Assembly: GCA_040754335.1 (NCBI GenBank) | Contig: JBFMCV010000005.1 | Span: forward strand, 263,586-327,585 | DNA: 64,000 bases | Source of the DNA: Thermodesulfobacteriota bacterium | GTDB taxonomy: Bacteria; Desulfobacterota_D; UBA1144; Nemesobacterales; UBA2774 | Direction of reading: 5' to 3' | Shown here: piece after piece, positions 9-56,911 of the stretch | How positions within the stretch are numbered: the stretch's first letter is position 1 | How the letters are laid out: every line of letters begins with the position of its first letter | The notes under the pieces: model-generated | What the model was told of the DNA's origin: nothing | Databases searched by the model: none | What the model saw: the letters and a program-made list of their open reading frames with translations, nothing else | Translations under genes and position numbers: made by a program

Positions 9-2075
9 GTGTATCTCTTACGACTGGCTCGACCTGTTTTTCTGTTAATCGCTCTAAGCTTGGTTTCAATACCGACGATCGCAACTGCTCAGACTACGGG
101 CACCAGCTCTTCGTTCGGCGCGTTCGCGGACCTGACATTGCTGCCGCTTCTCGGCCCGGGCATCAACATCGATCTGGGACCCGTATCCACCGCTTCGGGG
201 AATGCGCCGCCCGATTATTCGGACTCTGACACGGTGCTGAGTGCCGGATTGTCCACAGGCCTGACGGGGAATATTCTATCGACCGGCGTCCTCGCGACGA
301 ACGCGAGCTCTGTTATCGCAAATGACAACACTTCTGCCGATGCCACGGTCGACGACCTGGCCCTCTCCATAGTGGGGGCGCTACAGCTTTTGACGATCGG
401 GGCCGATACCGTCGTTTCGACTGCCGATGTAAGCGGGGACTGCGGCACGGGCAGCCTGACGGCTACGGGGACGACGACGATAGAGGGAGCGTCCGTGGGA
501 GGAACGCTCGGGCTCGGTCTCAGCATCGCCGTGAACCCCCCGCCCAATTTCGAGCTCATTAACCTCCTCGGCATCAGGGTCGTGCTGAACGAGCAGATAG
601 TAACCGGCGACGGCGTTACCAGCAGAGGTATAACCGTAAACGCAATACACGTCGACCTGACGAATACGATTCTCACGCTGATAGGCGCACTCAGCGGGGA
701 TATTATTATTTCACAATCCCAGGCGCAGGTGCAGTGTAATGAGGTACAAGCATCAGCCGATCTCTCCATTACCAAAGCCGACAGTCCCGACCCCGTTACA
801 GTGGGTAACGTCCTCACGTACACGCTGACCGTGACCAACAGCGGGCCTGACCAGGCGACCGGAGTCACCGTCACCGACGTAATACCTTCGAGTTTTACGT
901 TCAACAACGCCACTCCCAGCCAGGGGACGTGCAACCCGCTCGTCGGCCAGACGCTCACCTGTAATCTGGGGACCATAGCAAACGGGGATAACGCCTCTGT
1001 TACTATATCTGTAACACCCACACAGGCCGGTATTATTTCAAATATGGCCGTAGTGTCGGGGAACGAGCCCGACCCCGACCCCGACGATAATTCGGATACG
1101 GAATCCACGACTGTCGAGGGGGCCGGTCCCGCGAGCGCCAATCTTTCGGTCGTAAAGTCGGACAGCCCCGACCCGGTAATCGTCAATCAGCAGCTGACGT
1201 ACACGGTTACGGTTACGAATCTGGGTCCCGACGACGCTACGAACGTCGTCGGGACGGACACTCTCCCCGCAGGCGCGACCTTCGGCTCCGCCACGCCGGA
1301 ACAGGGTAGCTGCGGTGAGGCAGCGGGAGTAGTAACGTGCAACCTGGGCGGCATTCCGAGCGGAAGCAGCGTAAATATCACGATCATAATTACTCCGACC
1401 GCTACCGGAACGGCCGTTAACACGGTCTCCGTTGCAGGTGACGAGAGCGATCCCGACAGCAACAATAATTCGGATACCGAAAATACGGCTGTCGATCCAG
1501 TTCCGCAGAACGCCGATCTTTCAATCGCAAAGTCGGACAGCCCCGACCCTGTAATTGTAAATCAGCCGCTGACGTATACTCTCACGGTTACTAATACGGG
1601 GCCCGACACGGCGACGAACGTCGTAGTGACTGATACACTGCCCGCTGGGGCCGTATTCGGCTCGGCCACGGCCGAGCAGGGGAGCTGCGGCGAAGCGGCG
1701 GGTGTAGTTACATGCAGCCTCGGAAACATAGCGGACGGGGACAGCGTGATAGTTACGATAACAGTTACCCCGACGGTCGTCGGAAACAACGTGAACAGCG
1801 CATCTGTGATAGGAGACGTCAACGACCCTGACCCGGGCGACAACTCTGATGACGAGGATACGGATGTCGATCCGGCCCCTCCGGGACCAACGCCGACAGG
1901 GCCTGTTCCGACGATCGATCCGTCAGAACCGCCGGGAACGCCACTCCCGGGTCCACGAATAAACTCGATACCCACACTCTCCGGCTGGGCGTCGGCAGGG
2001 ATGCCGCTGCTCATGGTGCTGATCTCGATCATGGTGCTCAGGAGGCGGGCTAAGAGGGGCACGGGAAACGTATGA
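9..2075 (+). CDS. Secreted surface protein with three or more DUF11 (conserved repeat domain) repeats, a Pro-rich linker and an IPTL-CTERM sorting signal. It may start just upstream of the window.
   Basis: N-terminal signal peptide (MYLLRLARPVFLLIALSLVSIPTIATAQ). Three repeats of the DUF11 pattern DLSI(T/A)KSDSPDPV..LTYT(L/V)TVTN.GPD.AT.V.VTD.LP. C-terminus PRINSIPTLSGWASAGMPLLMVLISIMVLRRRAKRG, i.e. IPTL/SEWG-like motif, TM helix, then an Arg cluster. The GTG start at position 9 has no room for an RBS, so the true start may lie outside the window. Confidence 0.8.
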   Translation: MYLLRLARPVFLLIALSLVSIPTIATAQTTGTSSSFGAFADLTLLPLLGPGINIDLGPVSTASGNAPPDYSDSDTVLSAGLSTGLTGNILSTGVLATNASSVIANDNTSADATVDDLALSIVGALQLLTIGADTVVSTADVSGDCGTGSLTATGTTTIEGASVGGTLGLGLSIAVNPPPNFELINLLGIRVVLNEQIVTGDGVTSRGITVNAIHVDLTNTILTLIGALSGDIIISQSQAQVQCNEVQASADLSITKADSPDPVTVGNVLTYTLTVTNSGPDQATGVTVTDVIPSSFTFNNATPSQGTCNPLVGQTLTCNLGTIANGDNASVTISVTPTQAGIISNMAVVSGNEPDPDPDDNSDTESTTVEGAGPASANLSVVKSDSPDPVIVNQQLTYTVTVTNLGPDDATNVVGTDTLPAGATFGSATPEQGSCGEAAGVVTCNLGGIPSGSSVNITIIITPTATGTAVNTVSVAGDESDPDSNNNSDTENTAVDPVPQNADLSIAKSDSPDPVIVNQPLTYTLTVTNTGPDTATNVVVTDTLPAGAVFGSATAEQGSCGEAAGVVTCSLGNIADGDSVIVTITVTPTVVGNNVNSASVIGDVNDPDPGDNSDDEDTDVDPAPPGPTPTGPVPTIDPSEPPGTPLPGPRINSIPTLSGWASAGMPLLMVLISIMVLRRRAKRGTGNV

Positions 2076-14241: not shown

Positions 14242-15027
14242 TCAAGCTACGGTATCAACCGTCTTCTCTTCTGTATGATGTTTCATCTTCCTGGTAAACG
14301 GTATAAACATCGGAACAGACTCCCGATATTGTTCGTACGCCCTACCGTGCTCTGATATCAAATCTCTTTCTTCGTATCTGATGGCAACGAGTATGTAAGC
14401 GGTCGTAGCGATAGCGAAGAAAAGATGGGCTGCGGTCATAGTCGGAGTCGCCCAGAAAGCAAACAACCATCCGACATATAGCGGGTGTCTTATGTATTTA
14501 TACGGTCCGGGCGTTCCGAATTTAAGCTGAGTATACGTTTCACCCATCAAATAGAGCCATACCTGGCGCAGTCCGAATAGATCAAAATGGTTTATCAGAA
14601 AACTCGTCACTAAAACAGTCACCCACCCGAATGCAAAAAGTGAGTACAGAATTATTCTTAAAGTTTCATTTTCTGCGTTCCATATGGTTCCCCCCATAGG
14701 TTGCCACTGCCAGAATAACAATATAAGCGCGAGGTTCGAGAATAATACGTAGGTGCTGCGCTCGGCTGCTTTGGGAATGAGTTTGGTCAAAATACGTTTA
14801 AATCCCGGTCTGGCCATTATACTGTGTTGCAGGGCAAAGATTCCCAGTAACACCGTATTCAGTAATAGAGCTTGAGATAGAGGAGCTTCCGGGGTTGAGT
14901 CAATGGATTTAGGCACCAGAAAATTACCTACAAAACCTATGGCGTATAAATATGTTGCAACAAATAAAAAATAAGAAACCACTCCATATCCGAAAACTAT
15001 TATTCTTTTAGAAATATCGTCTTTCAT
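14242..15027 (-). CDS. Integral-membrane methyltransferase of the ICMT/PEMT/NnrU family
   Basis: Multi-TM protein with the C-terminal motif YKYIRHPLYVGWLFAFWATP...RYEERDL, characteristic of isoprenylcysteine carboxyl methyltransferase-like enzymes. Lower GC than the flanks. Confidence 0.65.
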   Translation of the reverse strand: MKDDISKRIIVFGYGVVSYFLFVATYLYAIGFVGNFLVPKSIDSTPEAPLSQALLLNTVLLGIFALQHSIMARPGFKRILTKLIPKAAERSTYVLFSNLALILLFWQWQPMGGTIWNAENETLRIILYSLFAFGWVTVLVTSFLINHFDLFGLRQVWLYLMGETYTQLKFGTPGPYKYIRHPLYVGWLFAFWATPTMTAAHLFFAIATTAYILVAIRYEERDLISEHGRAYEQYRESVPMFIPFTRKMKHHTEEKTVDTVA

Positions 15028-19584: not shown

Positions 19585-20051
19585 GCTCCCGATTAAATCT
19601 CACGACACTAGTAGGGTCCGTTCTGGTTTAATCAGGAATGGAATAAATTCAGAAGGGTCTACTTACCATTTTCTGTAAGAGAACATTAAAGAGCCCAGGA
19701 AGATCATCTACGCTCTTTCAGAACATTTACAGAATACACGAAGGGTGGGGAGAAAGCAATCGTGATTAGAAATTCCCCTTAGGGGAGAGGGGAGTCGAGA
19801 AGACGAAGGACAGGGTATGTATATATTCAGACGACAGGCGGGCGGGAGCTGTAAGTTATTGCGGCATATGGGCTATCCGACTGTAGGGGAGTAGGCCGGC
19901 GATGAAAAAAGGTTGAGAGTAACCCAAAGAATCCAATTGTAATAGTAATAAAATTATTTTAATATCGACAGGGGGGATATTCTGCGATGACAAAATAAAC
20001 TATGCGTCATGTGATTATTAGTGAGGCATGAAGCAAAAGGAGGCGGGCATC

Positions 20052-21422
20052 ATGGGTATTTCAATATGTAATAAGCAGAATATTTCGGGGCGCTTGGGCA
20101 GTGACTTAATCGGAATTGCAGCAGTACTCCTCTTGTCGTTTTTTTCTCTCGATGTCCTTAGTAATTTTTCCTCGGCTCAGGAGGACTGCACGATTATGCA
20201 GGTTACCGATACAGTAGGCGGAGAGTCCGATGTTTGGTTTTTGAACTCGGGCGGGACATTGGGGGGTTTTGATTCCAATGCGGATGTAAACGGAGGTAAT
20301 CCCGACGGCAGCTTCGAAGCGTATCTGATCAACACGGATACGTTTGTCATAACACAGCTGACCGACAACGCGGGATTGGACAGCTTTCCCTTCGATATAT
20401 CCGCGGGGGACAACATCGTCGCTCTGTCTTCTGAAGGGGATCCGACGGGGGATAATCCTGACGGCAACAGGGAGATATTCCTGTTCGACAGGGGGACGGA
20501 GATATTCACTCAGATAACGGATACAACGGGTGAAGATAATATCGTTCCAGCGCTGAACAGCGACGGCACACTGATTGCCTTTGACTCTTCCGCGGATGTA
20601 ACTGGCGGGAACCCTGACGGGAACAGGGAGATATTCCTCTACGATGCCGATACGGATACATTCACTCAGATAACCGATACCGTGTCCGGAGACAGCCTCG
20701 TTCCCGACATAACGCCCGACGGGACCACCATCGGCTTTCATTCTTCCGCAGACCTGACCGGCTCAAACCCTGACGCGAGCCTGGAGGTATTTCTATTTGA
20801 CGTGGTCTCGATGACGTTTACACAGATAACGGACGGTGACGGCATAAATAGCGCGACGGCCGCGCTAAGCTCCGACGGCGGGGTTATCGGGCTCAACAGC
20901 GATACTAATCCGACAGGCGGGAACCCCGATAACAACCGTGAGATATTCCTGTTCGATACCGTTGCTATGTCATTCACGCAGGTGACGGATTCAGCTGATA
21001 CGGATAATGGCGGACCTTCTATAAGCGCGGACGGCACACGTCTCGTATTTACTTCACGCGCCAATCTGACCGGAGATAATCCCGACGGGAATAGAGAGGT
21101 GTTCCTTTTTGACGCAAATACGGGAATTACCACTCAGATAACCGATAGCGTGGGCGGCAGCTTCTCGGACGCCGTAATAAGCGGCGACGGCACGAGGATA
21201 CTGTTCACTTCGGGTTCGGATATTACGGGGGAGAACCCGGACGGGAACATAGAGGTCTATTTCGCCGACTGCCGCGTGATAGTAAGCGACGGCGACACAA
21301 GCGGCGGGTGCGCGATTGCCGGGGAGGTTTCGCCGGGTCAGGCGGGGGTAAATGCAGCCATAATGCTGCTCATTCTTTTCGCTGGGGTTTCAGGGGTGCT
21401 GAGGAAGAGAAAACGGGTTTAG
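20052..21422 (+). CDS. Secreted protein with about 9 PD40 (WD40-like beta-propeller) repeats and a Cys-containing C-terminal sorting-like signal
   Basis: Repeated S(S/D)DG..IAF.S.ADLTG.NPDGN.EIFL(F/Y)D units. C-terminus GGCAIAGEVSPGQAGVNAAIMLLILFAGVSGVLRKRKRV (motif, TM, then basic tail). Start moved to the ATG at 20052, which sits 8 nt after the RBS AAGGAGG. Confidence 0.75.
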   Translation: MGISICNKQNISGRLGSDLIGIAAVLLLSFFSLDVLSNFSSAQEDCTIMQVTDTVGGESDVWFLNSGGTLGGFDSNADVNGGNPDGSFEAYLINTDTFVITQLTDNAGLDSFPFDISAGDNIVALSSEGDPTGDNPDGNREIFLFDRGTEIFTQITDTTGEDNIVPALNSDGTLIAFDSSADVTGGNPDGNREIFLYDADTDTFTQITDTVSGDSLVPDITPDGTTIGFHSSADLTGSNPDASLEVFLFDVVSMTFTQITDGDGINSATAALSSDGGVIGLNSDTNPTGGNPDNNREIFLFDTVAMSFTQVTDSADTDNGGPSISADGTRLVFTSRANLTGDNPDGNREVFLFDANTGITTQITDSVGGSFSDAVISGDGTRILFTSGSDITGENPDGNIEVYFADCRVIVSDGDTSGGCAIAGEVSPGQAGVNAAIMLLILFAGVSGVLRKRKRV

Positions 21423-38961: not shown

Positions 38962-39642
38962 GAAGGAGGATTTTCAGCCGTGACGAGGATAAGGAAATAC
39001 TTCCCTCTCATTATTTTCATAATTCCGGTAACAGCGATTTTATTAATCTTAGGACCGACCAGGTTCAACAAGCCCGTAAAGGGGAGCTCCGATTCTCTGA
39101 GCGTTCGGACAGAGAACGACTTCGTTACGGACCCCGGACTTGTAGCCCTGCCCGGGGAGGACATAGTGGCTGTGCTTCTGGAATCCCAGGACTGCAGCGT
39201 TCTCGAGAAAGACACCGGGGGTAAGGGTTACGACATAATCCCGTATAGATATACGGCGCCGATGGAGCAGACGTTCTGCTGGGACGACCGGAACAAGGGT
39301 GCGGGGCATTACATGGTGCTGGTAGACGACGAGGGCGTTGAGGTTCTTCAAGTTAATGCGAACGGGGAATGCGCTACGGGGACGGTGGAGGCCGGGGATT
39401 ACGAGATGAGGGTGTTCCACGACGAGGAGACGGAGAAGAACGTGGCCGTGTTCATAGTGCCCGAGAACAACAAATCTACTCTCAGCACTGCGTCGGACGA
39501 GACGCTCGAGAATATATCAACCTTTCTCGATACGGACAGGTGCGTGGGGTGTGATCTTTCTGGGGCGAACCTTTACAATGCCGATCTCAGCGGAGTGGAC
39601 CTTGAGGGGGCGAAGCTTAATGACGCGATATTGGCTAATGCG
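38962..39642 (+). repeat. About 680 bp block nucleotide-identical to 44854-45534 (RBS plus the 5' coding region of the giant paralogs)
   Basis: Six-frame ORFs on both strands are letter-for-letter identical between the copies (e.g. 39049-39420 and 44941-45312). The offset is exactly 5892 bp. Identity decays to about 80-90% after 39642. Confidence 0.85.
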
Positions 39643-42600
39643 GATCTGAGCGGAGCAAACCTGAAAGGGGCTGAGCTTAAGAACGCTGACCTGACGGGGG
39701 CTAAGCTGAAGGGGGCGGCGCTTGCAGGAGCGGACCTCACGAACGCGGTTCTAATAAACTCGGACCTTTCGGACGCGGACCTCACCGCGGCCAACATGGA
39801 GGGCGCGGACGTAACGGGGGCTAACGTCACGGACGCTCAACTTTCAGGGGCGGTTACGACAGGGATAGTACGAAATAATATTGACACGGGTGAAGAGATT
39901 AAACCGAGGGTCCACGAGGACATGGTTTCAACCGTCACCTGCACTACTGGTGCAATAGCCGCCGGAACGGGGGAGGACCTCGATGTCACGGGCCCGTGCA
40001 CGGTCGGCGCGGGGACTTACCACTACCGCAACGTTCATATATATAACGGCGGCTCGCTCACTTTCGAGGACGCCGTAATTCATTTCTGGGCTTACAACAT
40101 ACTTGTGGAAAATAACGGGAGCCTAATTGCGGGTTCTGTAACAACTCCTATCGGCGCAGCCGGCGGTAAACTGACGATTCATTTATACGGCGAGGACCAG
40201 GGCAACGGCGGAAAAGGCGTTCTCTGCAAAACGGGCGACATGTGCGGCGTGGATACCAACATATGGAACAACGACCATACGAGCAAGCAGAGCCTGCCCG
40301 GTCCGGTATCCGACTTCTTCTACCAGTACCATCACCTGCCTGTTGACTCGGGCGATACTCATGGCTACTTCGGGTACAAGACTCTCGCGGTCTCTTACGG
40401 CGGGACTTTGAGATTGTTCGGAAAGAAGGGGGCACTTTATCCCGATACAGCTCCCTCGCCTTCCGATTCCGGAATGAGCTGGGTGCGTCTAAACGGCACG
40501 GTCAACGTCGGAGCCACGCAGCTTACGGTCGACCGTCCCGTCGATTGGGGAGTCGGGGACAGGATCGTGATCACTACGACCGACTATCTCCCCGCGCATT
40601 CCGAGGTCCTCGAAATAATAGCGCCGCCAGTCAGCAGTACGACGTTTAATTTCAAGGTCATAAACCCGTTCACGGGCGCGGAAATACCCGGCGGGCTGAA
40701 GTACAGGCACCACGGCGTCACTTACCCCCTGACCGCGATACCTACTTCATACGGAATAAACATCAAGGTCAACGGCCAGCCGGCCGCCGAGACAAGGGCT
40801 GCAGTTGCGCTGCTGTCGCGCAGCATACGCATAGTTTCGGGGGGCGACACTTTCAACGCCGCGAACCCCACGTGTGAATACGACTGCCTCAGCAGCTCCC
40901 CCGCGACCTATCACTTCGGGGGCCACACGAGCGTGAGACAAGGGGCTAAAGAGGTCAAGATACAGGGCGTCGAGTTTTACCAGCTCGGGCAGGGCGGGAG
41001 GCTCGGACACTATCCGGTCCACTTCCACATAGCGAGGCAAGTTCCGGACGGCACTTTCGTGAAGGACTCCTCCATATGGGATTCGATGACCCGGTTTATC
41101 ACCATACATGCGACCCAGGGCGTTACGCTCGCGAGAAACGTGGGTTTCATGTCCATAGGCCACGGTTTTTATCTCGAGGACGGCACGGAGATAAACAACA
41201 AGCTCTATTCGAATATAGGCATACTTGCGCGCGCGGCGGTAAACAACCCTCAGAACCCGCGCCAGGTGCCGGGCATACTCGCCTGGAGCGGGAACCCCGG
41301 CGCTCCGCTGGTTCCTTATAATTCGGATATCTACAATCCAACCGTTTTCTGGATCATGAACGGGTGGAACGATTTCGAATATAACATGGCCGCGGGCGCA
41401 ACCGGGTGCGGCGTGTGCTACTGGCTCCTTTCCGGCGCCAACAGCGGCGCTTCGCAGGGCATGAAGTGGGAATCCTACGCCTCGATGCAGAGCGGCCCGG
41501 TCAAGACGGTAGACATGAAGACGTACGAGGAAAATTTCGGCAGGGCAGGGATGACGCCTCTTAAATCGTTCGTAGGCAACTACTGCACGTCGGCAATGAT
41601 GTCCTTCAATACCGTGGGAGCCACTGATTCATGCATAGGCGTGAGCAGCTTCACTCCGCTTACCAACCCGCTGGCCGAGACGCCGGCAGGGGATAAAAAC
41701 ATGGAAACCTATTACCCGAAGGTCGACCCCGGAGGCGGACGCTTCGCCACCAGGTGCGACGGCACTGACTGCGGCCCGACGGCGATACCGAACAGGTGCA
41801 GCACCGGCGACCGGAGCAAGTGCATGGTCACTGTACTCGACAGGTACACTTCGTCCTTCCACTGGCCTCAGCAGAATTTCGCCGCGATATGGCTCCGTCC
41901 GCAGTGGTACCTCTATATAAATAGCTTCCTCTCAGACGTGCAGAACGGCGGGCTCGGCTTCGTTACCGGAGGGGACTATACGCTTGCGAGCGTAATCCCG
42001 GGTCTCTGGCAGCTTGCGACGAAATCCGTCTTCGTAGGACATACACAGACCGATAACCCTCTCTCTTCGAACGCAGGGCCGTTCAACCCGCTCAAGAGCA
42101 CAGACATGAAGATTTCCGGCCTTGTCTGCGACAACGGCGATGCCAACCACTGCAGGTCGGCAGCGGAGGGTATAAGCATGCCGATCGACAATTTCGGCGT
42201 GAATCAGCGTTTCTACAACATATACGACGGCCCCAATTACCAGGACACGAACGCGTACCTCGACATAACGGAAACAAATCTCAACCCGGTGTGCCAGCCG
42301 GGCAATTGTCCCCAGTTCGGACCGGGAATCGGCATGCCTGCATGGATGTATACGCGGGTTATAGGAGTACCTGTAAACAAGACGAAGAACGCGTGTGTCC
42401 TGCCGAACGCGGCTATAGGATGGAAACAGCCGAACGGATTTTTCTATCCCCCTGCTTTCCATTCGGAGAAGCTTTATTTCCACAATGTGGACATACGACA
42501 TTATGTGCTTGAGCCTCTTTGGGATGCCGGTACATATACAACGAATGAGGATAAAGTCAAAACGGATTACTGCACGTTTCCAGCAAGCAATATGTTCGGA

Positions 42601-44622
42601 AACTTCAGCAGTGTCGACAGGCAGACCGTGCTAAACGACGACGACGGGTCGCTCACCGGACTATTGAGTCCCCCTGTTCCCGCCAAGGGTGAAACTATTT
42701 CAGTGAACCTCGACCCCTTCTTTAACGCACCGATTGAAGCAACTGAGTGCGAGTCCTTCAACACCGCAAAAACGAGTCCGTACGAGTACCTATCTACCAT
42801 TATTTATCCGGGTTGTGTGGGGAACAAGGACTGCGGCGCAAAGTGCGCCATCGACCAGAAGCCGTGCCTCGATAACAGCAACTGCGGCGGGGTTTGCAAG
42901 ATCGACCACAAGTCATGCTCCACTAACAACGATTGCAATTTGAGTAATCCGGACAATACGTGCGACTTTGGCCTCAATGCGTGTAATCTCAATGTTTCTT
43001 ACTGGTCAAGGCCATGTACTAACGCATCCTGCTACGGTGTCCCTCTGGAGAGGCAGCTCTTGACGTCAGCGGACAATCCTGATTTGTCCACAACGGGAAT
43101 CCGAATGGCCGGGATGGATCTCTATCAGAGGAGCATGATGACGCTCAACGACGGCGTTTATTACATTGATACGACGGTTTCGGAGGCCGAGCAGAGAAAG
43201 ACCGCGCAGAACCTGAACGTGTTTAAGCCGGGGGATACATACTATGTGTTCTTCCTCTACGCCAAGCCGAGCACGAAGCAGACATACCAGATATACGTGG
43301 GCACAGGGCTTAACCTTGACACCGATGTCAACATCGTACGTGCCAACATTGCCGGTTTTCCGATCATGTTCCCTGCAGGACCGGCCGACTGGGGCAGCGT
43401 CGGGTGGACGAAGAATTACGACAGCAATACTGGCATACTGACCGTCACTGTCGATATGAGCTCGTTCGCTACGGAATTCGCAGACACAAAGAAAGATTTC
43501 TGCCAGCCGGCGAGCTTCTGCACCCTGACCGGGGATACATGCGGATGCTCGACCTCGCTCCCGAGTGACCAGCTTGCGGCTTGCCAGGCGGGCAATATAT
43601 GCGGCAAGTGGGCGGGAAAGGATATAGACTGTCCCAAGGGCGGGTGCCTCGGTTTCTCGTTCAAACTCCCGAATCCGGGTTTCGTCGCGGACAATAAGGG
43701 GAATATCCTCCAACCCACGGGACACCGCCCAAAGCCTGTGTGCTTCCCGAACGAGGCTCCCTGGAATATAAGCCTGACGCGCGCGTCTGTTGAAGTCGCG
43801 GGCTCGTGCTCGACTACGCCGATAGACAATCCCAAGTTCTGCTCGCCGGGTGTTCCGCCTCCACCTCCGCCTCCGACCGAGCCTCCACCTCCGCCCCCGC
43901 CTCCTCCCCCAGGCGCTGATAAGGACAACGACGGAGTTGGGGACGACGTTGATTCCGACGGTGATAACGACGGCATTCCTAACAGCATGGAATCGTCATC
44001 GAGCGCTACAAACGTATTGAGCTCGACGCGCCTGACGATACTCAACGACCCCGACGGGGACGGGATACCGAACGAGTTCGACCTTGATTCGGACGGGGAC
44101 GGCATCCCCGACCACTTCGAAGCGGGCGGGAACAACGATGCGAACAGGGACGGACTTGCGGACAACCATATTGATACGGACGGGGACGGCCACCACGACG
44201 CGCACGATCCCGAAACGGGCGGCGCTCTCCTGCCGCTCCACGACACGGACGGGGACGATATACCGGACTTCCTGGATACGGATTCGGACGGGGACGGCGT
44301 TACAGACACGAATGAAACTGCGGGCTGTGTGGATGCGGACGGGGACGGTGAGCACGATAATTCCGGTGATTCGAACAGTGACGGACTTCCGGACAGCGTT
44401 CATCCCGCTACGGGCGCCCCGTGCGGTTTAATCGATTCGGACGGTGACGGGATTTTCGACCACCTCGACGCCGTGCACGACGGAGGGGGTGTTGAAGATG
44501 ACGGAGGCGGGAACTGCGCGATCGCCGGAACCGGTAGCGGCAAAGGAAGCCTCGCCGGACTCCTGCTCGCGTATTCTCTCATACCCGCAAGCATCCTTGT
44601 ACGCAGGAAGATGAGGAGTTAG
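38980..44622 (+). CDS. Giant secreted/surface protein 1 (1880 aa) with pentapeptide repeats, a large conserved core, Cys-rich inserts, a poly-Pro linker, TSP3-like Ca-binding repeats and a C-terminal sorting-like signal
   Basis: GTG start 8 nt after the RBS AAGGAGGA. N-terminal TM/signal (YFPLIIFIIPVTAILLILG). Pentapeptide repeats A(D/N)L(S/T)GA(N/K)L. Motifs shared with the paralog (RAAVALLSRSIRIVS, GVEFYQLGQGGR.G.YPVH.H, NGWNDFEYNMAAGA). PPPPPPTEPPPPPPPPPP. DxDxDG repeats (DSDGDGIPDHFE etc). C-terminus GGGNCAIAGTGSGKGSLAGLLLAYSLIPASILVRRKMRS. Confidence 0.85.
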   Translation: MTRIRKYFPLIIFIIPVTAILLILGPTRFNKPVKGSSDSLSVRTENDFVTDPGLVALPGEDIVAVLLESQDCSVLEKDTGGKGYDIIPYRYTAPMEQTFCWDDRNKGAGHYMVLVDDEGVEVLQVNANGECATGTVEAGDYEMRVFHDEETEKNVAVFIVPENNKSTLSTASDETLENISTFLDTDRCVGCDLSGANLYNADLSGVDLEGAKLNDAILANADLSGANLKGAELKNADLTGAKLKGAALAGADLTNAVLINSDLSDADLTAANMEGADVTGANVTDAQLSGAVTTGIVRNNIDTGEEIKPRVHEDMVSTVTCTTGAIAAGTGEDLDVTGPCTVGAGTYHYRNVHIYNGGSLTFEDAVIHFWAYNILVENNGSLIAGSVTTPIGAAGGKLTIHLYGEDQGNGGKGVLCKTGDMCGVDTNIWNNDHTSKQSLPGPVSDFFYQYHHLPVDSGDTHGYFGYKTLAVSYGGTLRLFGKKGALYPDTAPSPSDSGMSWVRLNGTVNVGATQLTVDRPVDWGVGDRIVITTTDYLPAHSEVLEIIAPPVSSTTFNFKVINPFTGAEIPGGLKYRHHGVTYPLTAIPTSYGINIKVNGQPAAETRAAVALLSRSIRIVSGGDTFNAANPTCEYDCLSSSPATYHFGGHTSVRQGAKEVKIQGVEFYQLGQGGRLGHYPVHFHIARQVPDGTFVKDSSIWDSMTRFITIHATQGVTLARNVGFMSIGHGFYLEDGTEINNKLYSNIGILARAAVNNPQNPRQVPGILAWSGNPGAPLVPYNSDIYNPTVFWIMNGWNDFEYNMAAGATGCGVCYWLLSGANSGASQGMKWESYASMQSGPVKTVDMKTYEENFGRAGMTPLKSFVGNYCTSAMMSFNTVGATDSCIGVSSFTPLTNPLAETPAGDKNMETYYPKVDPGGGRFATRCDGTDCGPTAIPNRCSTGDRSKCMVTVLDRYTSSFHWPQQNFAAIWLRPQWYLYINSFLSDVQNGGLGFVTGGDYTLASVIPGLWQLATKSVFVGHTQTDNPLSSNAGPFNPLKSTDMKISGLVCDNGDANHCRSAAEGISMPIDNFGVNQRFYNIYDGPNYQDTNAYLDITETNLNPVCQPGNCPQFGPGIGMPAWMYTRVIGVPVNKTKNACVLPNAAIGWKQPNGFFYPPAFHSEKLYFHNVDIRHYVLEPLWDAGTYTTNEDKVKTDYCTFPASNMFGNFSSVDRQTVLNDDDGSLTGLLSPPVPAKGETISVNLDPFFNAPIEATECESFNTAKTSPYEYLSTIIYPGCVGNKDCGAKCAIDQKPCLDNSNCGGVCKIDHKSCSTNNDCNLSNPDNTCDFGLNACNLNVSYWSRPCTNASCYGVPLERQLLTSADNPDLSTTGIRMAGMDLYQRSMMTLNDGVYYIDTTVSEAEQRKTAQNLNVFKPGDTYYVFFLYAKPSTKQTYQIYVGTGLNLDTDVNIVRANIAGFPIMFPAGPADWGSVGWTKNYDSNTGILTVTVDMSSFATEFADTKKDFCQPASFCTLTGDTCGCSTSLPSDQLAACQAGNICGKWAGKDIDCPKGGCLGFSFKLPNPGFVADNKGNILQPTGHRPKPVCFPNEAPWNISLTRASVEVAGSCSTTPIDNPKFCSPGVPPPPPPPTEPPPPPPPPPPGADKDNDGVGDDVDSDGDNDGIPNSMESSSSATNVLSSTRLTILNDPDGDGIPNEFDLDSDGDGIPDHFEAGGNNDANRDGLADNHIDTDGDGHHDAHDPETGGALLPLHDTDGDDIPDFLDTDSDGDGVTDTNETAGCVDADGDGEHDNSGDSNSDGLPDSVHPATGAPCGLIDSDGDGIFDHLDAVHDGGGVEDDGGGNCAIAGTGSGKGSLAGLLLAYSLIPASILVRRKMRS

Positions 44623-44871
44623 TACGACAAATTCGTCTGCACTCAATCGTCCTTACAGCATTGCTTCGAGCGGGGTGTCGCGTGTCGTAACGACACCCTG
44701 TTCGAAACTCCTCCCTGCGGTAAACCGGTTACCGGGTTAATCAATCGATATAAACAGTAGTCTTTTGGTTTTTTATGTTCTTTTGATATATAAATACAAG
44801 AAGCGTTAAAATTATCATGGAGTTGGATGTTTCTATAATTGGGGCAATACCTTGAAGGAGGATATTCAGCC

Positions 44872-47800
44872 GTGACGAGGATAAGGAAATACTTCCCTCT
44901 CATTATTTTCATAATTCCGGTAACAGCGATTTTATTAATCTTAGGACCGACCAGGTTCAACAAGCCCGTAAAGGGGAGCTCCGATTCTCTGAGCGTTCGG
45001 ACAGAGAACGACTTCGTTACGGACCCCGGACTTGTAGCCCTGCCCGGGGAGGACATAGTGGCTGTGCTTCTGGAATCCCAGGACTGCAGCGTTCTCGAGA
45101 AAGACACCGGGGGTAAGGGTTACGACATAATCCCGTATAGATATACGGCGCCGATGGAGCAGACGTTCTGCTGGGACGACCGGAACAAGGGTGCGGGGCA
45201 TTACATGGTGCTGGTAGACGACGAGGGCGTTGAGGTTCTTCAAGTTAATGCGAACGGGGAATGCGCTACGGGGACGGTGGAGGCCGGGGATTACGAGATG
45301 AGGGTGTTCCACGACGAGGAGACGGAGAAGAACGTGGCCGTGTTCATAGTGCCCGAGAACAACAAATCTACTCTCAGCACTGCGTCGGACGAGACGCTCG
45401 AGAATATATCAACCTTTCTCGATACGGACAGGTGCGTGGGGTGTGATCTTTCTGGGGCGAACCTTTACAATGCCGATCTCAGCGGAGTGGACCTTGAGGG
45501 GGCGAAGCTTAATGACGCGATATTGGCTAATGCGAATCTCTCAGGGGCTAACTTAAAGGGGGCGGAGCTCAGGAACGCTGACCTGACGGGGGCTAAGCTC
45601 AAGGGTGCAACACTTGCGGGTGCAGATCTCACGAACGCGGTGCTTATAAACTCGGACCTCTCAGACGCGGACCTCACCGCGGCCAACATGGAGGGCGCGG
45701 ATGTGACGGGGGCTAATTTCGGTAATGCAAACCTTACGGGCGTCTTACAAACCAAATCCGCTGATACGGGCGCCGACGCCGGTGAAGATATTGTCTCACT
45801 GAGCGAGGAGCTGGAGGCCGCTCCAACAGACACATGTTCCGAGGGTAAGCTCGCGCCGGGGGACGGAACGAAGGACCTCCTTATATCTGCTAAATGCGAT
45901 GTGTCGGCTGGAGTATACCTTTATCAGAACGTAAACGTTATACAAAACGGCGTGCTCAATTTCGTGGACGGGGGCGGAGAGACGCATTTCTGGGCCAAGT
46001 CTATACTGGTCGAGAACAACGGAACTATATCGGCGGGAACCACGCAGGCGCCGTTCGGGAAAAATAAGAGCGTCCTAACGATACACCTCTACGGGGGCGA
46101 CAGCGACAAGACGGGCATTGAATGCAGGACTCCCAAGCAGAATACAAATGATCCGCCGTGCGGCATAGACAAGAATGTGTGGACCTCAAACGGTGGATCA
46201 AAAGTCACCCTGCCGCCGGGTAACATTTCGGATTATTTCTACCAGTATACTCAGCACGATAATACGCAGGGCGAAACGGGTTTCTTCGGCAGAAAAGTAT
46301 TAGCTGTATCCTACGGCGGGACTTTGAAGCTATACGGCAAGAAGGGTGCTAAATACGGGGACAACATTCCAAATTACGACTCGGGCACTAGCTGGGTGAG
46401 GCTAAAGAACGACAAAGACGCATCCAAAACACTAATCTTTCTCGACCGCGACGTGGATTGGGAAGTGGGGGACCGCATAGTGGTCACCACTACGGACTAC
46501 CTTCCCGGGCATTCCGAGGAGCTTCAGATCGTAAAGAAAGAGGGACCGAGAAAGCTCAGGATAACTATTGTCGACCCCGCGACGAATATGCCGCCCGCGG
46601 GCTGTGTCACCGATAATCCCAATGTAGACAAGTGCGGTCTCAGGTGGGTGCATAACGGGGATACTTACCCGGATACTGACTTCAACTTTCAGAGTGACGA
46701 TCTTAAGCGCCTGAGTCTCAATATCAAACTAGCCAACGGCGGGGTCGACAACGGGAAGGCGCTTGCCGAGACCAGGGCCGCTGTCGCGCTCCTCTCCCGC
46801 AGCATACGCATAGTGTCCGCGGGAGACAGTATCCCGGCTGAATCCGGCAGGAAGTGCAAGTTCGACTGCTTCCCGACGGGATTTTACGGCGGCCATACCA
46901 TGTTAAGGCAGGGCATTAAGCTCGTACAGATACAGGGGGTCGAGTTTTACCAACTGGGCCAGGGAGGGCGGAAGGGACGCTACCCGGTCCATTTGCACCT
47001 GCTCCGCAAAGCGCCTCCTACTACGTTCGTTAAAGATTCTTCAATAAACGAGTCTATGACCAGGTGGATTACGTTCCACGGCACGCAGAACGTGACCGCC
47101 GCGAGGAACGTGGGCTGGAAGTCCATAGGGCACGGATATTATCTCGAGGACGGCACGGAGACGGATAACAAGTTATATTCGAACATAGGTATCTTCGCCC
47201 GGGCTGCGCTCAACAACGTACAGAACCCGCGCCAGGTGCCCGGAATTCTGGCGTACGCAGTTGCCGACGTACCTTTTGGAAAGCAGGACACGGTTGCCGT
47301 CCCCTACCACAGTGATTACGCGCAGCCAGCAGTGTTCTGGATAATGAACGGATGGAATGACTTCGAATACAACATGGCCGCGGGGGCGAACGCATGCGGC
47401 ATCTGTTACTGGTGGCTGCCGGGAGCTATAAGCGGCATGTCGCAGGACCAGAAATGGGAGTCCTACGCCTCGCAGCAAAGTAATCTGGGCAGGGCGGGAC
47501 TCACACCGCTCAAGAATTTCAAGGGCAATTACTGCTCTTCGGCGATGAACGCCTTTAATTCCATACAGGATATAAGCCCGTGTCTCGGCGTCGGCGGTAT
47601 TGGAGGCACGTTCCCGACCCTCGAGCCTGTTACCGTAGGAAACATTTCACCTGCGCCTAAGCCGGGGGAGGGGGAAAGATATTATCCCAAGGTTAACGGT
47701 TCGCATAATCCTACGAAATGCGACCAGACTGACTGTTCTAATGCGCCCGTCTGTACATCGGGAGACCGAAAAAATTGCGTGGTCGCTGTTATAGACCGGC

Positions 47801-49767
47801 TTACTACTGCGTTTCACTGGGCCGAGACGAATTTTTCGGCAATATGGCTCCGCCCGCGGTGGTATCTCGTCATAAACAGCGTGATATCGGACGTACAGAG
47901 CGCGGGCCTGACATTCGTGACCGGCGGCGACTATACGGAATCGAATTTCTTCCCCGGACAGTGGCAGCTAGCTAGGCAGAATGTATTTATAGGTCAGACT
48001 CAGCCCAATAATCCACTCGCGTCGGCCGCGGGACCTGTCAATAAGGGTACGAATCTTAAATGCGCGGACCAAACCAACGGCGTCGTAGTCAATAGTTATT
48101 GCCTACTCAAGGATGAGGGAATAAGCTTCCCCCTCGCAAATTTCGCGAACAACCAGCGTTTGTTCAATATATACGACGGCCCGAGTTTCGAAGACTCGAA
48201 TGCCTTTTTCGACATCAAAAAGACGTTTATAGACGATTGCACGGTTGGGCAAGGTAGCTGCTCGGCAAGTAAGTCGATGTACGGAAGGGTTCCGCTTATG
48301 CCTTATGATAAGAAGAAAAATCAGTGCTATCTGCCGAACGCAGCGATCGCATGGAAACAGCCGAACGGCTTTTACTACCCTCCGGCATTCCACTCTGCGA
48401 ACCTCTATTTCCGGAACAACGTCGATATACGCCATTTCGTTATAGAGCCGCTGTTTCAGCCGGGCAAGTTCGCATTCCAGTCTGACGACGAGCGCACAAA
48501 ACAGAATTACTGTACCTTCACACTTAACAACTCCGAAGGTTTCGGGGGATCGTTCGGCAATTTCTCTGCTATCGACAGGCAGACCATACTCAACGACGAC
48601 GACGGCTCGCTGACCGGGCTTAAGAACACGATATCCGTAAATGAGGACCCGTTTTTTAACGCTCCGACTGAAACGCTCGAATGTCAGTCGGAGGAGACGG
48701 CCAAAACCAGTCCTTATGACTATGTAACGACGGTCATATATCCGGACTGTGTGGCGAAAAAGAACTGCGGCGGTGTATGTAAAGTGGACAAGAAACCATG
48801 CGCCGATACCAGTAATTGCGCGGATATTCCGAATAATACGTGCGATGACAGTAACGCGTTCTGGAACAGCGACTGCGGGAGCTCTTTCTGCTACGGCGTC
48901 CCGCTTTACAGGCAGTTACTTACCAAAGACGAAGCAAGCAACACGAAAGGCGCCGAGATACGCATGATGGGAATGAACTTTTTCCAGAGGAGCAACCTCA
49001 CGGCAAACCACGGCGTTTATTACATTGATACTACGGTTTCAGATGCGAACCAGAGGGCGGGTCTGAATCTAGCGCCTCTTCAGAAGCCTTCCGTGAACGT
49101 ATTTAAGGGCGGTGAAACTTATTACGTACTCTTCATATTCGCCAAGGCTAACACGAAGCAGACTTACCAGATTTATGTCGGGAACGGGTTCGATCCTGAG
49201 AAAGACGTAAGCGGAATACAGTCCCCCCTTAAAAAGAGCCGTCCGCTCGACGTTAATTCTATAAGCTGGCCGGCTAAATGGACGAGAAAATGGTATAAAG
49301 ACGACCCGTCGACGGGCATCCTGGAAGTTACGGTGGATTTCAGTGACTTCAAGACGCAGTTCGATAACGCCAGGAAGGACAGGTGCCAGCCGGAGACTTT
49401 CTGCACGTGGACCGGTTCCGCCGCTACGGGCTCGTGCGGATGTTCTGATAAGCTGAAGACGAGCAACCCCGAGCTCTACGCTGAATGCACAAAGTCGCTC
49501 GGGGATAATAAGAACAATATATGCAGCTGGGCTGTGAGAGCGGTCGACTGCCCCGAGGGCGGCTGCTACGGGTTTGCGGTCAATCTGAAGAATGATCCCC
49601 CGGCCGAGCCTATTGCCCCTCCGGCGCCGTGCTGCTTCCCCGATAACCCAGACTGGAATGTTAACTTCAGCCCGGTGGGACAGAACGTAGCCGGGAGCTG
49701 TCAGGACTCGAATCCGCCGAAACCTGAGTTCTGCACTTCTCCGGTATGTCCGACGACACAGTTGTAA
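44872..49767 (+). CDS. Giant secreted protein 2 (about 1630 aa), paralog of 38980-44622, lacking the TSP3 repeats and the C-terminal sorting signal
   Basis: Same GTG/RBS context as copy 1, which is why I prefer 44872 over the upstream ATG of the ORF track. The first roughly 220 aa are identical, then about 55-60% identical through the core. Ends ...EFCTSPVCPTTQL. Confidence 0.85.
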   Translation: MTRIRKYFPLIIFIIPVTAILLILGPTRFNKPVKGSSDSLSVRTENDFVTDPGLVALPGEDIVAVLLESQDCSVLEKDTGGKGYDIIPYRYTAPMEQTFCWDDRNKGAGHYMVLVDDEGVEVLQVNANGECATGTVEAGDYEMRVFHDEETEKNVAVFIVPENNKSTLSTASDETLENISTFLDTDRCVGCDLSGANLYNADLSGVDLEGAKLNDAILANANLSGANLKGAELRNADLTGAKLKGATLAGADLTNAVLINSDLSDADLTAANMEGADVTGANFGNANLTGVLQTKSADTGADAGEDIVSLSEELEAAPTDTCSEGKLAPGDGTKDLLISAKCDVSAGVYLYQNVNVIQNGVLNFVDGGGETHFWAKSILVENNGTISAGTTQAPFGKNKSVLTIHLYGGDSDKTGIECRTPKQNTNDPPCGIDKNVWTSNGGSKVTLPPGNISDYFYQYTQHDNTQGETGFFGRKVLAVSYGGTLKLYGKKGAKYGDNIPNYDSGTSWVRLKNDKDASKTLIFLDRDVDWEVGDRIVVTTTDYLPGHSEELQIVKKEGPRKLRITIVDPATNMPPAGCVTDNPNVDKCGLRWVHNGDTYPDTDFNFQSDDLKRLSLNIKLANGGVDNGKALAETRAAVALLSRSIRIVSAGDSIPAESGRKCKFDCFPTGFYGGHTMLRQGIKLVQIQGVEFYQLGQGGRKGRYPVHLHLLRKAPPTTFVKDSSINESMTRWITFHGTQNVTAARNVGWKSIGHGYYLEDGTETDNKLYSNIGIFARAALNNVQNPRQVPGILAYAVADVPFGKQDTVAVPYHSDYAQPAVFWIMNGWNDFEYNMAAGANACGICYWWLPGAISGMSQDQKWESYASQQSNLGRAGLTPLKNFKGNYCSSAMNAFNSIQDISPCLGVGGIGGTFPTLEPVTVGNISPAPKPGEGERYYPKVNGSHNPTKCDQTDCSNAPVCTSGDRKNCVVAVIDRLTTAFHWAETNFSAIWLRPRWYLVINSVISDVQSAGLTFVTGGDYTESNFFPGQWQLARQNVFIGQTQPNNPLASAAGPVNKGTNLKCADQTNGVVVNSYCLLKDEGISFPLANFANNQRLFNIYDGPSFEDSNAFFDIKKTFIDDCTVGQGSCSASKSMYGRVPLMPYDKKKNQCYLPNAAIAWKQPNGFYYPPAFHSANLYFRNNVDIRHFVIEPLFQPGKFAFQSDDERTKQNYCTFTLNNSEGFGGSFGNFSAIDRQTILNDDDGSLTGLKNTISVNEDPFFNAPTETLECQSEETAKTSPYDYVTTVIYPDCVAKKNCGGVCKVDKKPCADTSNCADIPNNTCDDSNAFWNSDCGSSFCYGVPLYRQLLTKDEASNTKGAEIRMMGMNFFQRSNLTANHGVYYIDTTVSDANQRAGLNLAPLQKPSVNVFKGGETYYVLFIFAKANTKQTYQIYVGNGFDPEKDVSGIQSPLKKSRPLDVNSISWPAKWTRKWYKDDPSTGILEVTVDFSDFKTQFDNARKDRCQPETFCTWTGSAATGSCGCSDKLKTSNPELYAECTKSLGDNKNNICSWAVRAVDCPEGGCYGFAVNLKNDPPAEPIAPPAPCCFPDNPDWNVNFSPVGQNVAGSCQDSNPPKPEFCTSPVCPTTQL

Positions 49768-56883: not shown

Positions 56884-56911
56884 TGCCCGCTGACGGCATG
56901 GAGGTTATATT

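What the first reader, a model, noticed from the sequence alone, without database searches (positions are those of the whole stretch)
21300..21422. Shared Cys-containing C-terminal sorting-like signal (G-[GN]-C-A-I-A-G, spacer, TM, basic tail) on two unrelated secreted proteins
- The PD40-repeat protein ends GGCAIAGEVSPGQAGVNAAIMLLILFAGVSGVLRKRKRV.
- Giant protein 1 (44500-44622) ends GGGNCAIAGTGSGKGSLAGLLLAYSLIPASILVRRKMRS.
- Both have the tripartite architecture of exosortase/archaeosortase-type signals. The invariant Cys is reminiscent of MYXO-CTERM-like signals and could be a lipidation or cleavage site.
- A third protein in the window (9-2075) uses a different signal, IPTL-CTERM.
- So this genome seems to use at least two distinct C-terminal sorting classes.
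- The CAIAG motif is not one I can assign to a named class.
Basis: seen in the sequence. Interest (0 to 1): 0.7.

Follow-up and report, generated by a model that had tools for sequence, protein, structure and literature searches.

The report
Unmodelled cysteine-containing C-terminal protein-sorting tail
Two unrelated secreted proteins in this Thermodesulfobacteriota genome end in the same short cysteine-containing membrane tail, which belongs to a widespread surface-protein sorting tag resembling the myxobacterial MYXO-CTERM signal but passing no curated model; its processing enzyme was not found.

Summary
Both ORFs end in a G/S-rich run, C-A-I-A-G, a spacer, a transmembrane helix and a basic cluster.

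It is not chance:
- Orthologues of both proteins keep the tail down to about 50-60% identity.
- PD40-family homologues carry this tail, a JDVT-like Cys tail or an IPTL-CTERM tail, so tails are swapped.
- A tail profile finds 108 cluster representatives among 1.84 billion proteins at E <= 1e-3. The 104 whose tails could be anchored on the Cys all carry it at the extreme C-terminus. Carriers include subtilases, DUF11, He_PIG, NHL and "choice-of-anchor Q" proteins.

The consensus is [GS]n-C-[AST]-[ILV]-[AS]-[GPS], usually one Cys, a Pro in the helix 18-23 residues after the Cys, then a dibasic.

The only sorting models the tails touch repeatedly are the three bacterial Cys-type signals (Synerg-, MYXO- and JDVT-CTERM). 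The window's own tails score 9-11 bits, below every cutoff.

Best reading: a new variant of the Cys-containing sorting signals, lipidated on Cys and cleaved by an Rce1-like (CPBP) myxosortase-type protease. The enzyme was not found. No CPBP, exosortase or rhomboid gene lies in the window or within 10 kb of tail genes in ten other loci.

The parts
20028..21422 (+). Gene for a secreted PD40/TolB-like beta-propeller repeat protein (464 aa) that carries the Cys-type C-terminal tail.
   Evidence: ORF and translation. PF07676 and TolB-like hits. Signal peptide conserved in orthologues P0002-P0008. The 100% identical NCBI protein P0001 is called from Met57.
21303..21323 (+). Signature motif G-G-C-A-I-A-G of the PD40 protein. 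The Cys codon is 21309-21311.
   Evidence: The Cys is invariant, and A/[ILVF]/A/G is conserved in orthologues P0001-P0016.
21348..21419 (+). Transmembrane segment VNAAIMLLILFAGVSGVL (21348-21401) and basic cluster RKRKR-V (21402-21419) of the PD40 tail. This is the Pro-less subtype.
   Evidence: Recognised by an HMM trained without its own family, at 19.2 bits.
38980..44622 (+). Gene for giant surface protein 1 (1880 aa): pentapeptide repeats, G8 domain, CEMIP beta-helix, Pro-rich linker, acidic Asp-rich repeats (weak MtsC-like hit), and the Cys-type tail.
   Evidence: Orthologues P0121-P0144, P0150 and P0152 keep the tail.
44506..44529 (+). Signature motif G-G-N-C-A-I-A-G of giant protein 1. 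The Cys codon is 44515-44517.
   Evidence: CAIAG is the commonest 5-mer at this position across the family, 11 of 104.
44551..44619 (+). Transmembrane segment LAGLLLAYSLIPASILV, with the family's conserved Pro (44551-44601), followed by the basic cluster RRKMR-S (44602-44619).
   Evidence: Pro is present in the helix of 99 of 104 family tails, mostly 18-23 residues after the Cys.
44839..49767 (+). Giant protein 2, a paralogue without linker, acidic repeats or tail. It ends ...CPTTQL.
   Evidence: A conserved tail-less subfamily (P0145-P0149, P0153, P0157) ends the same way. In a related genome both paralogues carry tails (L004).
1968..2075 (+). IPTL-CTERM-like tail (SIPTLSGWASAGMPLLMVLISIMVLRRRAKR...) of the DUF11-repeat protein encoded at 9-2075. 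This is the second sorting class in the window.
   Evidence: TIGR04174 scores 16.3 bits on the tail alone and 10.5 bits in the whole protein, against a cutoff of 20.5. DUF11 domains.

Best explanation
The CAIAG tails are two copies of a modular C-terminal protein-sorting signal. It belongs to the Cys-containing tripartite type but is a variant that current models do not cover. Its consensus is a Gly/Ser-rich run, an invariant Cys, [AST]-[ILV]-[AS]-[GPS], a spacer of about 8-12 residues, a transmembrane helix that usually contains L-I-P, and an Arg/Lys cluster.

Proposed mechanism, with the status of each step:
1. The client is exported by Sec through its N-terminal signal peptide and held in the inner membrane by the C-terminal helix, with the basic cluster in the cytoplasm. 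The sequence features are shown; the topology is inferred.
2. The periplasm-proximal Cys is lipidated (inferred by analogy).
3. A housekeeping CPBP/Rce1-like glutamic intramembrane protease of the myxosortase family cleaves just after the modified Cys and removes the helix (inferred; the enzyme was not found).
4. The lipid-anchored protein is moved to the cell surface, probably by a type II secretion system (inferred).

The signal serves many clients per genome rather than one dedicated client.
For: Conservation and modularity:
- The tail is kept in orthologues of two unrelated families down to about 50-60% identity.
- The giant1-type tail also occurs on a PD40-family protein, P0068.
- PD40-family homologues carry this tail, a JDVT-like Cys tail or an IPTL-CTERM tail.

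Breadth:
- A 45-position tail profile finds 108 representatives at E<=1e-3, seven of them at <=1e-10, among 1.84e9 proteins.
- In all 104 tails that could be anchored on the Cys, it lies 30-50 residues from the C-terminus.
- Carriers fall into at least 13 unrelated body groups and 64 Pfam families typical of surface proteins. Counts include choice-of-anchor Q 15, DUF7151 13, DUF11 7, He_PIG 7 and Peptidase_S8 6.
- Most full-length carriers have signal peptides.

Position statistics:
- Cys in 104 of 104.
- G or S at positions -1 to -5.
- A/S/T at +1, I/L/V at +2, A/S at +3.
- Pro in the helix in 99 of 104.
- A single Cys in 91 of 104.

Relation to known signals: among 18,950 NCBIfam models, the three families matched by most of the 39 tails are the three bacterial Cys-type signals. 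These are Synerg-CTERM (15), MYXO-CTERM (14) and JDVT-CTERM (10). One distant PD40-family tail, P0113, passes the JDVT cutoff at 27.6 bits against 27.

Several clients per genome:
- Two in this 64-kb window.
- A subtilase plus a PD40 protein in L001.
- Three tailed genes in L058.
- P0136 plus P0281 on chromosome OZ244197.1.

Mechanism by analogy: MYXO-CTERM cleavage by MrtX depends on the Cys (PMC11980579). CPBP partners are predicted for all four known Cys-type signals (bioRxiv 10.1101/2023.06.07.544157).
Against: - No sorting enzyme was identified. No PF02517 (CPBP), exosortase or rhomboid hit appears among about 55 window ORFs.
- None appears within +-10 kb of tail genes in L001-L004, L006 and L057-L061.
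- The rest of the genome could not be read with these tools.
- The window tails score only 9-11 bits against the JDVT and MYXO models, so homology to those signals is suggestive, not shown.
- Short hydrophobic profiles can collect composition-driven matches.
- Lipidation and cleavage are entirely inferred.
- The PD40-type tail lacks the family's Pro and is a weak member at 19.2 bits.
Confidence: 0.6

Rival explanations
1. The tails are divergent members of an existing class, either JDVT-CTERM (cleaved by MrtJ) or MYXO-CTERM (cleaved by MrtX/C/P), and not a separate variant.
For: - PD40-family relatives with GGGGCSLAPS...LSLLMLxPAL tails score 21-27.6 bits on NF033191, and one passes the cutoff of 27.
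- All subtypes align in one block anchored on the Cys.
- Haft notes that MYXO-CTERM needs lineage-specific models.
Against: - The window tails score 9 bits on JDVT (cutoff 27) and 11 bits on MYXO (cutoff 20).
- There is no D-P motif 9 residues after the Cys. GCGC is rare, with a single Cys in 91 of 104. Pro is present in the helix of 99 of 104, unlike MYXO-CTERM.
- There are several clients per genome and no adjacent CPBP gene, unlike the one-client, adjacent-MrtJ JDVT system.
- The lineage is Thermodesulfobacteriota/Dadabacteria, not Myxococcota, Bradymonadales or the Pseudomonadota (beta- and gammaproteobacterial) hosts of JDVT-CTERM.
- In full-length carriers no known CTERM model is among the 25 most-matched NCBIfam families at E<=1e-3.
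Confidence: 0.15
2. The signal is processed by a different sorting enzyme type, such as an exosortase/archaeosortase-family or rhombosortase-type protease or an unknown enzyme, and the Cys plays another role.
For: - The tripartite architecture is common to all these systems.
- No CPBP gene was seen anywhere in the DNA examined.
- The same genomes also use IPTL-CTERM tails, whose partner enzyme was not looked for here, and the two tail types are exchanged on homologous proteins.
Against: - PEP-CTERM and GlyGly-CTERM do not appear among the hits at E<=10.
- An invariant Cys in the signature is the hallmark of the CPBP-processed classes, and only those classes are hit repeatedly.
- No exosortase or rhomboid gene was seen nearby either.
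Confidence: 0.15
3. The tail is a permanent C-terminal membrane anchor on a type I membrane protein. It is never cleaved, and the Cys serves for a disulfide or for S-acylation.
For: A helix plus a basic cluster is enough to anchor a protein. No processing enzyme was found.
Against: - A plain anchor would not need an invariant Cys with a conserved [AST]-[ILV]-[AS]-[GPS] context and a conserved Pro across at least 13 unrelated protein groups.
- Exchange with IPTL-CTERM sorting tails on homologous proteins points to an equivalent sorting role.
- Carriers include 15 'choice-of-anchor Q' proteins. From background knowledge, that name marks domains found with alternative sorting tags.
Confidence: 0.09
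4. The two tails resemble each other by chance or through shared composition.
For: The tails are short and of low complexity. Overall tail identity between the two window proteins is only 33%.
Against: - An identical 5-mer CAIAG sits at the same offset in both tails.
- The tail is conserved in both orthologue sets.
- The leave-family-out HMM gives E=1.6e-4.
- The profile finds 108 significant hits, and the 104 that could be anchored all carry the tail at the C-terminus.
Confidence: 0.01

Closest known systems
MYXO-CTERM / myxosortase MrtX, MrtC, MrtP (TIGR03901; Myxococcota, Bradymonadales)
   Same: - Gly-rich signature with an invariant Cys, a spacer, a helix and an Arg-rich end.
- Many unrelated surface clients per genome.
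- The sorting enzyme is not encoded next to clients.
- Giant protein 1's acidic repeat region gives a weak hit (22.9 bits, cutoff 350) to the MYXO-CTERM protein MtsC.
- 14 of 39 tails give weak hits to the model.
   Different: - Usually one Cys, without the frequent GCGC.
- A conserved Pro in the helix, where MYXO-CTERM helices lack Pro.
- A conserved C-[AST]-[ILV]-[AS]-[GPS] context.
- A different phylum.
- Scores of 8-13 bits against the cutoff of 20.
JDVT-CTERM / MrtJ (NF033191 / NF033192)
   Same: - A single invariant Cys after a Gly run, with a Leu-rich helix.
- Distant PD40-family tails reach 21-27.6 bits.
   Different: - No D-P motif 9 residues after the Cys.
- Several clients per genome instead of one.
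- No adjacent CPBP gene in the neighbourhoods examined.
- The window tails score 9 bits or give no hit.
Synerg-CTERM / MrtS (TIGR04564; Synergistota)
   Same: A single Cys after a Ser/Gly cluster, and a conserved Pro inside a Leu-rich helix. 15 of 39 tails give weak hits.
   Different: - Synerg-CTERM has no spacer between the Cys and the helix. Here the spacer is about 8-12 residues.
- The hits align only the helix (model positions 7-26), not the Cys.
- The ten giant-type tails checked individually are all below the cutoff of 22.5.
Eukaryotic/archaeal CAAX processing (Rce1, MmRce1; CPBP family PF02517)
   Same: Proposed logic: the Cys side chain is lipidated first, then an intramembrane glutamic protease cleaves just after it.
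   Different: CAAX lies at the very C-terminus with only three residues after the Cys. Here 30-50 residues follow the Cys, including a helix. The lipid, the transferase and the protease are all unknown.
IPTL-CTERM (TIGR04174 / PF18203)
   Same: Same position and tripartite design. It is used by homologues of the same PD40 family and by the DUF11 protein in this window, and it is encoded next to Cys-type clients in related genomes.
   Different: Its signature is IPTLSEWG with no Cys, so it is a different class and presumably uses a different enzyme.

Membership tests
Generic tripartite C-terminal sorting signal | A short signature motif, a hydrophobic helix and a basic cluster at the extreme C-terminus of a protein with an N-terminal signal peptide. 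| tested here: met
   In all 104 family tails that could be anchored, the Cys lies 30-50 residues from the end.
Generic tripartite C-terminal sorting signal | Modular: shared by proteins with no other homology, and exchangeable with other sorting tails among homologues. | tested here: met
Cys-containing sorting signals processed by CPBP/myxosortase-family proteases | An invariant Cys in the signature motif. | tested here: met
   Cys is invariant in alignment A2 and in 104 of 104 tails.
Cys-containing sorting signals processed by CPBP/myxosortase-family proteases | A cognate CPBP (PF02517) protease co-distributed with the signal in the same genomes. | not testable with these tools
   No PF02517 gene was seen in the window or in ten +-10 kb neighbourhoods. 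Whole genomes could not be scanned.
MYXO-CTERM (TIGR03901.2) | HMM score at or above the curated cutoff of 20 bits. | tested here: not met
   Giant protein 1 tail scores 10.9-11.1 bits. The PD40 tail gives no hit.
MYXO-CTERM (TIGR03901.2) | Frequent second Cys (GCGC), and no Pro or charged residue in the helix. | tested here: not met
   A single Cys in 91 of 104 tails, and Pro in the helix of 99 of 104.
MYXO-CTERM (TIGR03901.2) | Restricted to Myxococcota and Bradymonadales. | tested here: not met
   Named carriers are Thermodesulfobacteriota, Candidatus Dadabacteria and a 'delta proteobacterium' MAG.
JDVT-CTERM (NF033191) | HMM score at or above 27 bits. | tested here: not met
   The PD40 tail scores 9 bits and the giant protein 1 tail gives no hit. 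Only one distant relative, P0113, reaches 27.6 bits.
JDVT-CTERM (NF033191) | A nearly invariant D-P motif 9 residues after the Cys. | tested here: not met
   Absent from both window tails. In the family the Pro lies mostly 18-23 residues after the Cys.
JDVT-CTERM (NF033191) | One client per genome, encoded next to MrtJ. | tested here: not met
   Two clients lie in this 64-kb window, and several lie in L001, L004 and L058. No adjacent CPBP gene was seen.
Synerg-CTERM (TIGR04564) | HMM score at or above 22.5 bits, with the Cys directly abutting the helix (no spacer). | tested here: not met
   The window tails give no hit. Ten giant-type relatives checked individually score 10-21.7 bits, aligned on the helix only. 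A spacer of about 8-12 residues is present.
PEP-CTERM / GlyGly-CTERM / LPXTG | A match to the class HMM or its signature motif. | tested here: not met
   No PEP-CTERM or GlyGly-CTERM model appears among the hits at E<=10. LPXTG scores 12.6 bits against 15.9, on the helix only.
IPTL-CTERM (TIGR04174), for ORF 9-2075 | HMM score at or above 20.5 bits, with the IPTLSEWG-type signature. | tested here: inconclusive
   SIPTLSGW is present. The score is 16.3 bits on the tail alone and 10.5 bits in the whole protein.

The most novel reading that the evidence does not exclude
The '[GS]n-C-[AST]-[ILV]-[AS]-[GP] ... L-I-P ... RR' tail is a distinct fifth class of Cys-containing sorting signal. It would have its own cognate enzyme, either a new myxosortase (Mrt) subfamily or a non-CPBP enzyme. 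That enzyme would act as a housekeeping sorter for a large and varied set of surface proteins in Dadabacteria-like Thermodesulfobacteriota and other uncultured lineages, alongside an IPTL-CTERM system with which tails are exchanged.
Probability: 0.4. Interest if true: 0.65.

Novelty: new variant of a known kind. Interest (0 to 1): 0.55.

Why it matters
C-terminal sorting tags determine which proteins a cell displays on its surface. Each known class has led to a dedicated sorting enzyme: sortase, exosortase, archaeosortase, rhombosortase and myxosortase.

This tail marks surface proteins in poorly known, uncultured lineages such as Dadabacteria-like Thermodesulfobacteriota. In the full-length carriers tested, no known sorting-tail model was among the families most often matched. 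The carriers include proteases, adhesin-like repeat proteins and CEMIP-like giant proteins.

A dedicated HMM would improve annotation. It would also give a query profile for finding the cognate enzyme by phylogenetic profiling. That would test whether Rce1-like proteases sort Cys-tagged proteins well beyond Myxococcota.

Tried and rejected
- Tail-only search of the 5.8-billion-protein word index found nothing, not even the identical NCBI protein. This is a limit of the index, not evidence.
- The look-up of encoding contigs does not hold this MAG, so the window could not be extended.
- A degenerate DNA pattern for the giant1-type tail was scanned over 185,579 species genomes and gave 50 matches, about my prior rough estimate of chance matches. 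After in-frame filtering, eight intact hits remained. All look like giant-protein orthologues by their upstream sequence, and there was also one apparently degraded copy (L052). The scan was useful for naming lineages but not for a census.
- I looked for CPBP motifs (EExxxR, FxxxH, HxxxN) in the unannotated window ORFs and found none convincing.
- I tested whether the unknown polytopic membrane proteins beside the giant genes could be the protease. There was no PDB sequence match, and the AlphaFold model was unusable at pLDDT 39, so this stays open.
- I considered a functional link to the ICMT-like methyltransferase at 14242-15027, by analogy with CAAX processing. It is syntenic in L002 but absent from the neighbourhoods of tail genes in the other loci. 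I rejected the link for lack of association.
- I considered Synerg-CTERM membership and rejected it, because the hits align only the helix and not the Cys.
Full report
**1. The observation**

window:21300-21422(+) translates to SGGCAIAGEVSPGQAGVNAAIMLLILFAGVSGVLRKRKRV*. window:44500-44622(+) translates to DGGGNCAIAGTGSGKGSLAGLLLAYSLIPASILVRRKMRS*. Both match the finding exactly.

They close two ORFs:
- ORF 20028-21422 encodes 464 aa with PD40/TolB-like propeller repeats.
- ORF 38980-44622 encodes 1880 aa with pentapeptide repeats, a G8 domain, a CEMIP-type beta-helix, a poly-Pro linker and acidic Asp-rich repeats.

The two proteins share no domain. Both begin with a signal peptide or anchor that is conserved in orthologues. 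NCBI's 408-aa call for the PD40 protein (P0001) starts at Met57 and drops that signal peptide.

A six-frame scan for C-terminal tails with a hydrophobic stretch and a basic end listed 12 ORFs. Only three are on plausible secreted-protein genes: these two and the IPTL-like tail of the DUF11 protein at 9-2075. The neighbouring paralogue, giant protein 2 (44839-49767), has no tail.

**2. Whether it is more than chance**

The window comes from an NCBI MAG labelled Thermodesulfobacteriota bacterium. P0001, P0121 and P0145 are 100% identical to window proteins and lie on a 351,956-bp contig.

Orthologues keep the tails:
- PD40 orthologues at 70-84% identity (P0002-P0012 and P0014-P0016) keep SGGCA[LIVF]AG...VNAAIMLLVLF...RKR.
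- Giant-protein orthologues down to about 48-60% identity keep [GSN]-C-[AT]-[ILV]-[AS]-[GPS]-x-GGLAGLLxYxLIPAxxLxRRR.

Within the PD40 family the tail is exchanged:
- P0068 carries a giant1-type tail.
- More distant members carry GGGGCSLAPS..LSLLMLxPAL..RR.
- Many carry canonical IPTL-CTERM tails.

An unrelated subtilase in locus L001 ends ...SSGCAIAYGPIQISTAVANLLIPLVP...RRKKK.

An HMM trained without any PD40-family sequence ranks the window PD40 tail first among untrained ORFs. It scores E=1.6e-4 and 19.2 bits among 4400 six-frame ORFs, and its orthologue in L002 comes next.

**3. How wide the family is**

A profile of 39 tails (alignment A2) was searched against 1.84 billion cluster representatives. 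It gave 108 proteins at E<=1e-3 and seven at <=1e-10.

Statistics on the 104 tails that could be anchored on the Cys:
- Every tail sits at the extreme C-terminus, with the Cys 30-50 residues from the end.
- Cys is invariant.
- Positions -1 to -5 are G or S.
- Position +1 is A/S/T, +2 is I/L/V, +3 is A/S, and +4 is G/P/A/S.
- Pro lies inside the helix in 99 of 104, mostly at +18 to +23.
- The first dibasic lies at +24 to +33.
- 91 of 104 have a single Cys.
- CAIAG is the commonest 5-mer, at 11 of 104.

Carriers are typical secreted or surface proteins:
- Choice-of-anchor Q (15), DUF7151 (13), DUF11 (7), He_PIG (7) and Peptidase_S8 (6), plus NHL and other propellers, PMP repeats, collagen and RTX.
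- Together they match 64 Pfam families.
- They form at least 13 unrelated body groups.

Several genomes hold several clients:
- Two in this window.
- A subtilase plus a PD40 protein in L001.
- Both giant paralogues in L004.
- Three tailed genes in L058.
- P0136 and P0281 on the 3.1-Mb chromosome OZ244197.1.

Named carriers are Thermodesulfobacteriota MAGs, Candidatus Dadabacteria (a class of that phylum in the NCBI taxonomy) and a 'delta proteobacterium' MAG. Most other carriers come from unnamed metagenome contigs.

**4. Comparison with known classes**

Against NCBIfam release 20, the window tails give only MYXO-CTERM at 11.1 bits (cutoff 20), JDVT-CTERM at 9 bits (cutoff 27) and LPXTG at 12.6 bits (cutoff 15.9).

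Across the 39 tails, the three models matched by the most members are the three bacterial Cys-type signals: Synerg-CTERM (15), MYXO-CTERM (14) and JDVT-CTERM (10).

The scores are almost all below the cutoffs:
- In the ten giant-type tails checked individually, Synerg hits align only the helix and reach at most 21.7 bits against 22.5.
- JDVT reaches 21-27.6 bits, but only on the distant GGGGCSLAPS subtype.

In 101 full-length carriers no sorting-tail model is among the 25 most-matched families at E<=1e-3. Pfam has no matching tail model.

Measured against the published definitions:
- Like JDVT-CTERM, the class has a single Cys, but it lacks the D-P motif.
- Like MYXO-CTERM and JDVT-CTERM, it has a spacer, which Synerg-CTERM lacks.
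- Like Synerg-CTERM, it has a helix Pro, which MYXO-CTERM lacks.
- Like MYXO-CTERM, it serves many clients, whereas JDVT-CTERM serves one.

It is therefore a variant of the Cys-containing kind and not a member of any modelled family.

**5. Mechanism**

The architecture is shown: a Sec signal, a periplasm-side Cys motif, a helix and a cytoplasmic basic cluster.

The rest is inferred from the MYXO-CTERM system. There, MrtX, a CPBP/Rce1-like intramembrane protease, cleaves the tail in a Cys-dependent way. Prior lipidation and export to the surface by a type II secretion system are proposed (PMC11980579). CPBP partners are also predicted for all four known Cys-type signals (bioRxiv 10.1101/2023.06.07.544157).

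**6. The missing enzyme**

I could not find the enzyme. No CPBP, exosortase or rhomboid gene lies among about 55 window ORFs. None lies within 10 kb of tail genes in L001-L004, L006 and L057-L061.

Non-adjacency is what a multi-client housekeeping sorter predicts, as with myxosortase. It is still absence of evidence, so the enzyme class remains open.

**7. Verdict**

The motif is a real, conserved, modular sorting-type signal. It is closest to MYXO-, JDVT- and Synerg-CTERM, and it is not captured by current models. It coexists with an IPTL-like class in the same genome.

It is a new variant of a known kind. Its main value is as a handle for annotation and for finding its cognate sorting enzyme.

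Noticed in passing
window 38980-39639 and 44872-45531: The first 660 nt of the giant protein 1 and giant protein 2 coding sequences are 100% identical, and identity then decays quickly. The two upstream regions share only the stretch around the ribosome-binding site. This suggests recent gene conversion between the tandem paralogues or an assembly artefact.
   Followed up: partly
window 14242-15027 (-): A polytopic membrane protein hits ICMT (PF04140, 26.4 bits) and PEMT. ICMT is the third enzyme of eukaryotic CAAX processing. The gene lies 5 kb upstream of the PD40 gene and is syntenic in L002, but it is absent near tail genes in the other loci, so no link is supported.
   Followed up: partly
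window 37162-38775 (-), 49891-52167 (-), 53860-59097 (+): The giant-protein genes are flanked by three PMT_2-type (GT-C) glycosyltransferases, an amine oxidase and several polytopic membrane proteins with no family assignment. Two of those are paralogues sharing a C-terminal PFPLGTxFRTGQAxIWLSMLAFLLYYSYK block. Part of this arrangement recurs in L004. It may be a glycosylation or export module for the giant proteins.
   Followed up: partly
window 38980-49767 (+): The giant proteins combine pentapeptide repeats with G8 and CEMIP-type beta-helix domains, which are known from animal hyaluronan-binding and -degrading proteins. The family is widespread in uncultured bacteria, with 513 hits at E<=1e-3. 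Some members carry RTX repeats at the C-terminal end in place of the Cys tail.
   Followed up: no
window 18022-19584 (-): A B12-binding radical SAM enzyme is encoded divergently next to the PD40 gene. The pairing is conserved in L002. Its function and any relation to the PD40 protein are unknown.
   Followed up: no
window 20028-20196: The NCBI protein for the PD40 gene (P0001, 408 aa) starts at Met57 and omits the signal peptide. Orthologues of 457-470 aa support the longer form with the signal peptide.
   Followed up: yes
window 13255-13716 (+): A small secreted Cys-rich protein (153 aa with a signal peptide) with no Pfam match.
   Followed up: no
L052 2246-2583 (delta proteobacterium MFD09730.bin.2.52): An apparently degraded copy of the giant-protein tail region. 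It reads ...GGSKCAIAG and then goes out of frame, while two intact copies lie on other contigs of the same MAG (L018, L048).
   Followed up: no
L059 16150-18770 and 23574-24731; L001 9385-9774: Small proteins with canonical IPTL-CTERM tails are encoded next to Cys-tail clients in a metagenome-assembled genome. The two tag systems therefore seem to coexist regularly in these lineages.
   Followed up: partly
window 60940-61545 (-) and 62045-62617 (+): An RTX calcium-binding repeat protein and a CAP/SCP-domain secreted protein. A CAP-domain gene also lies near tail genes in L003 and L059.
   Followed up: no
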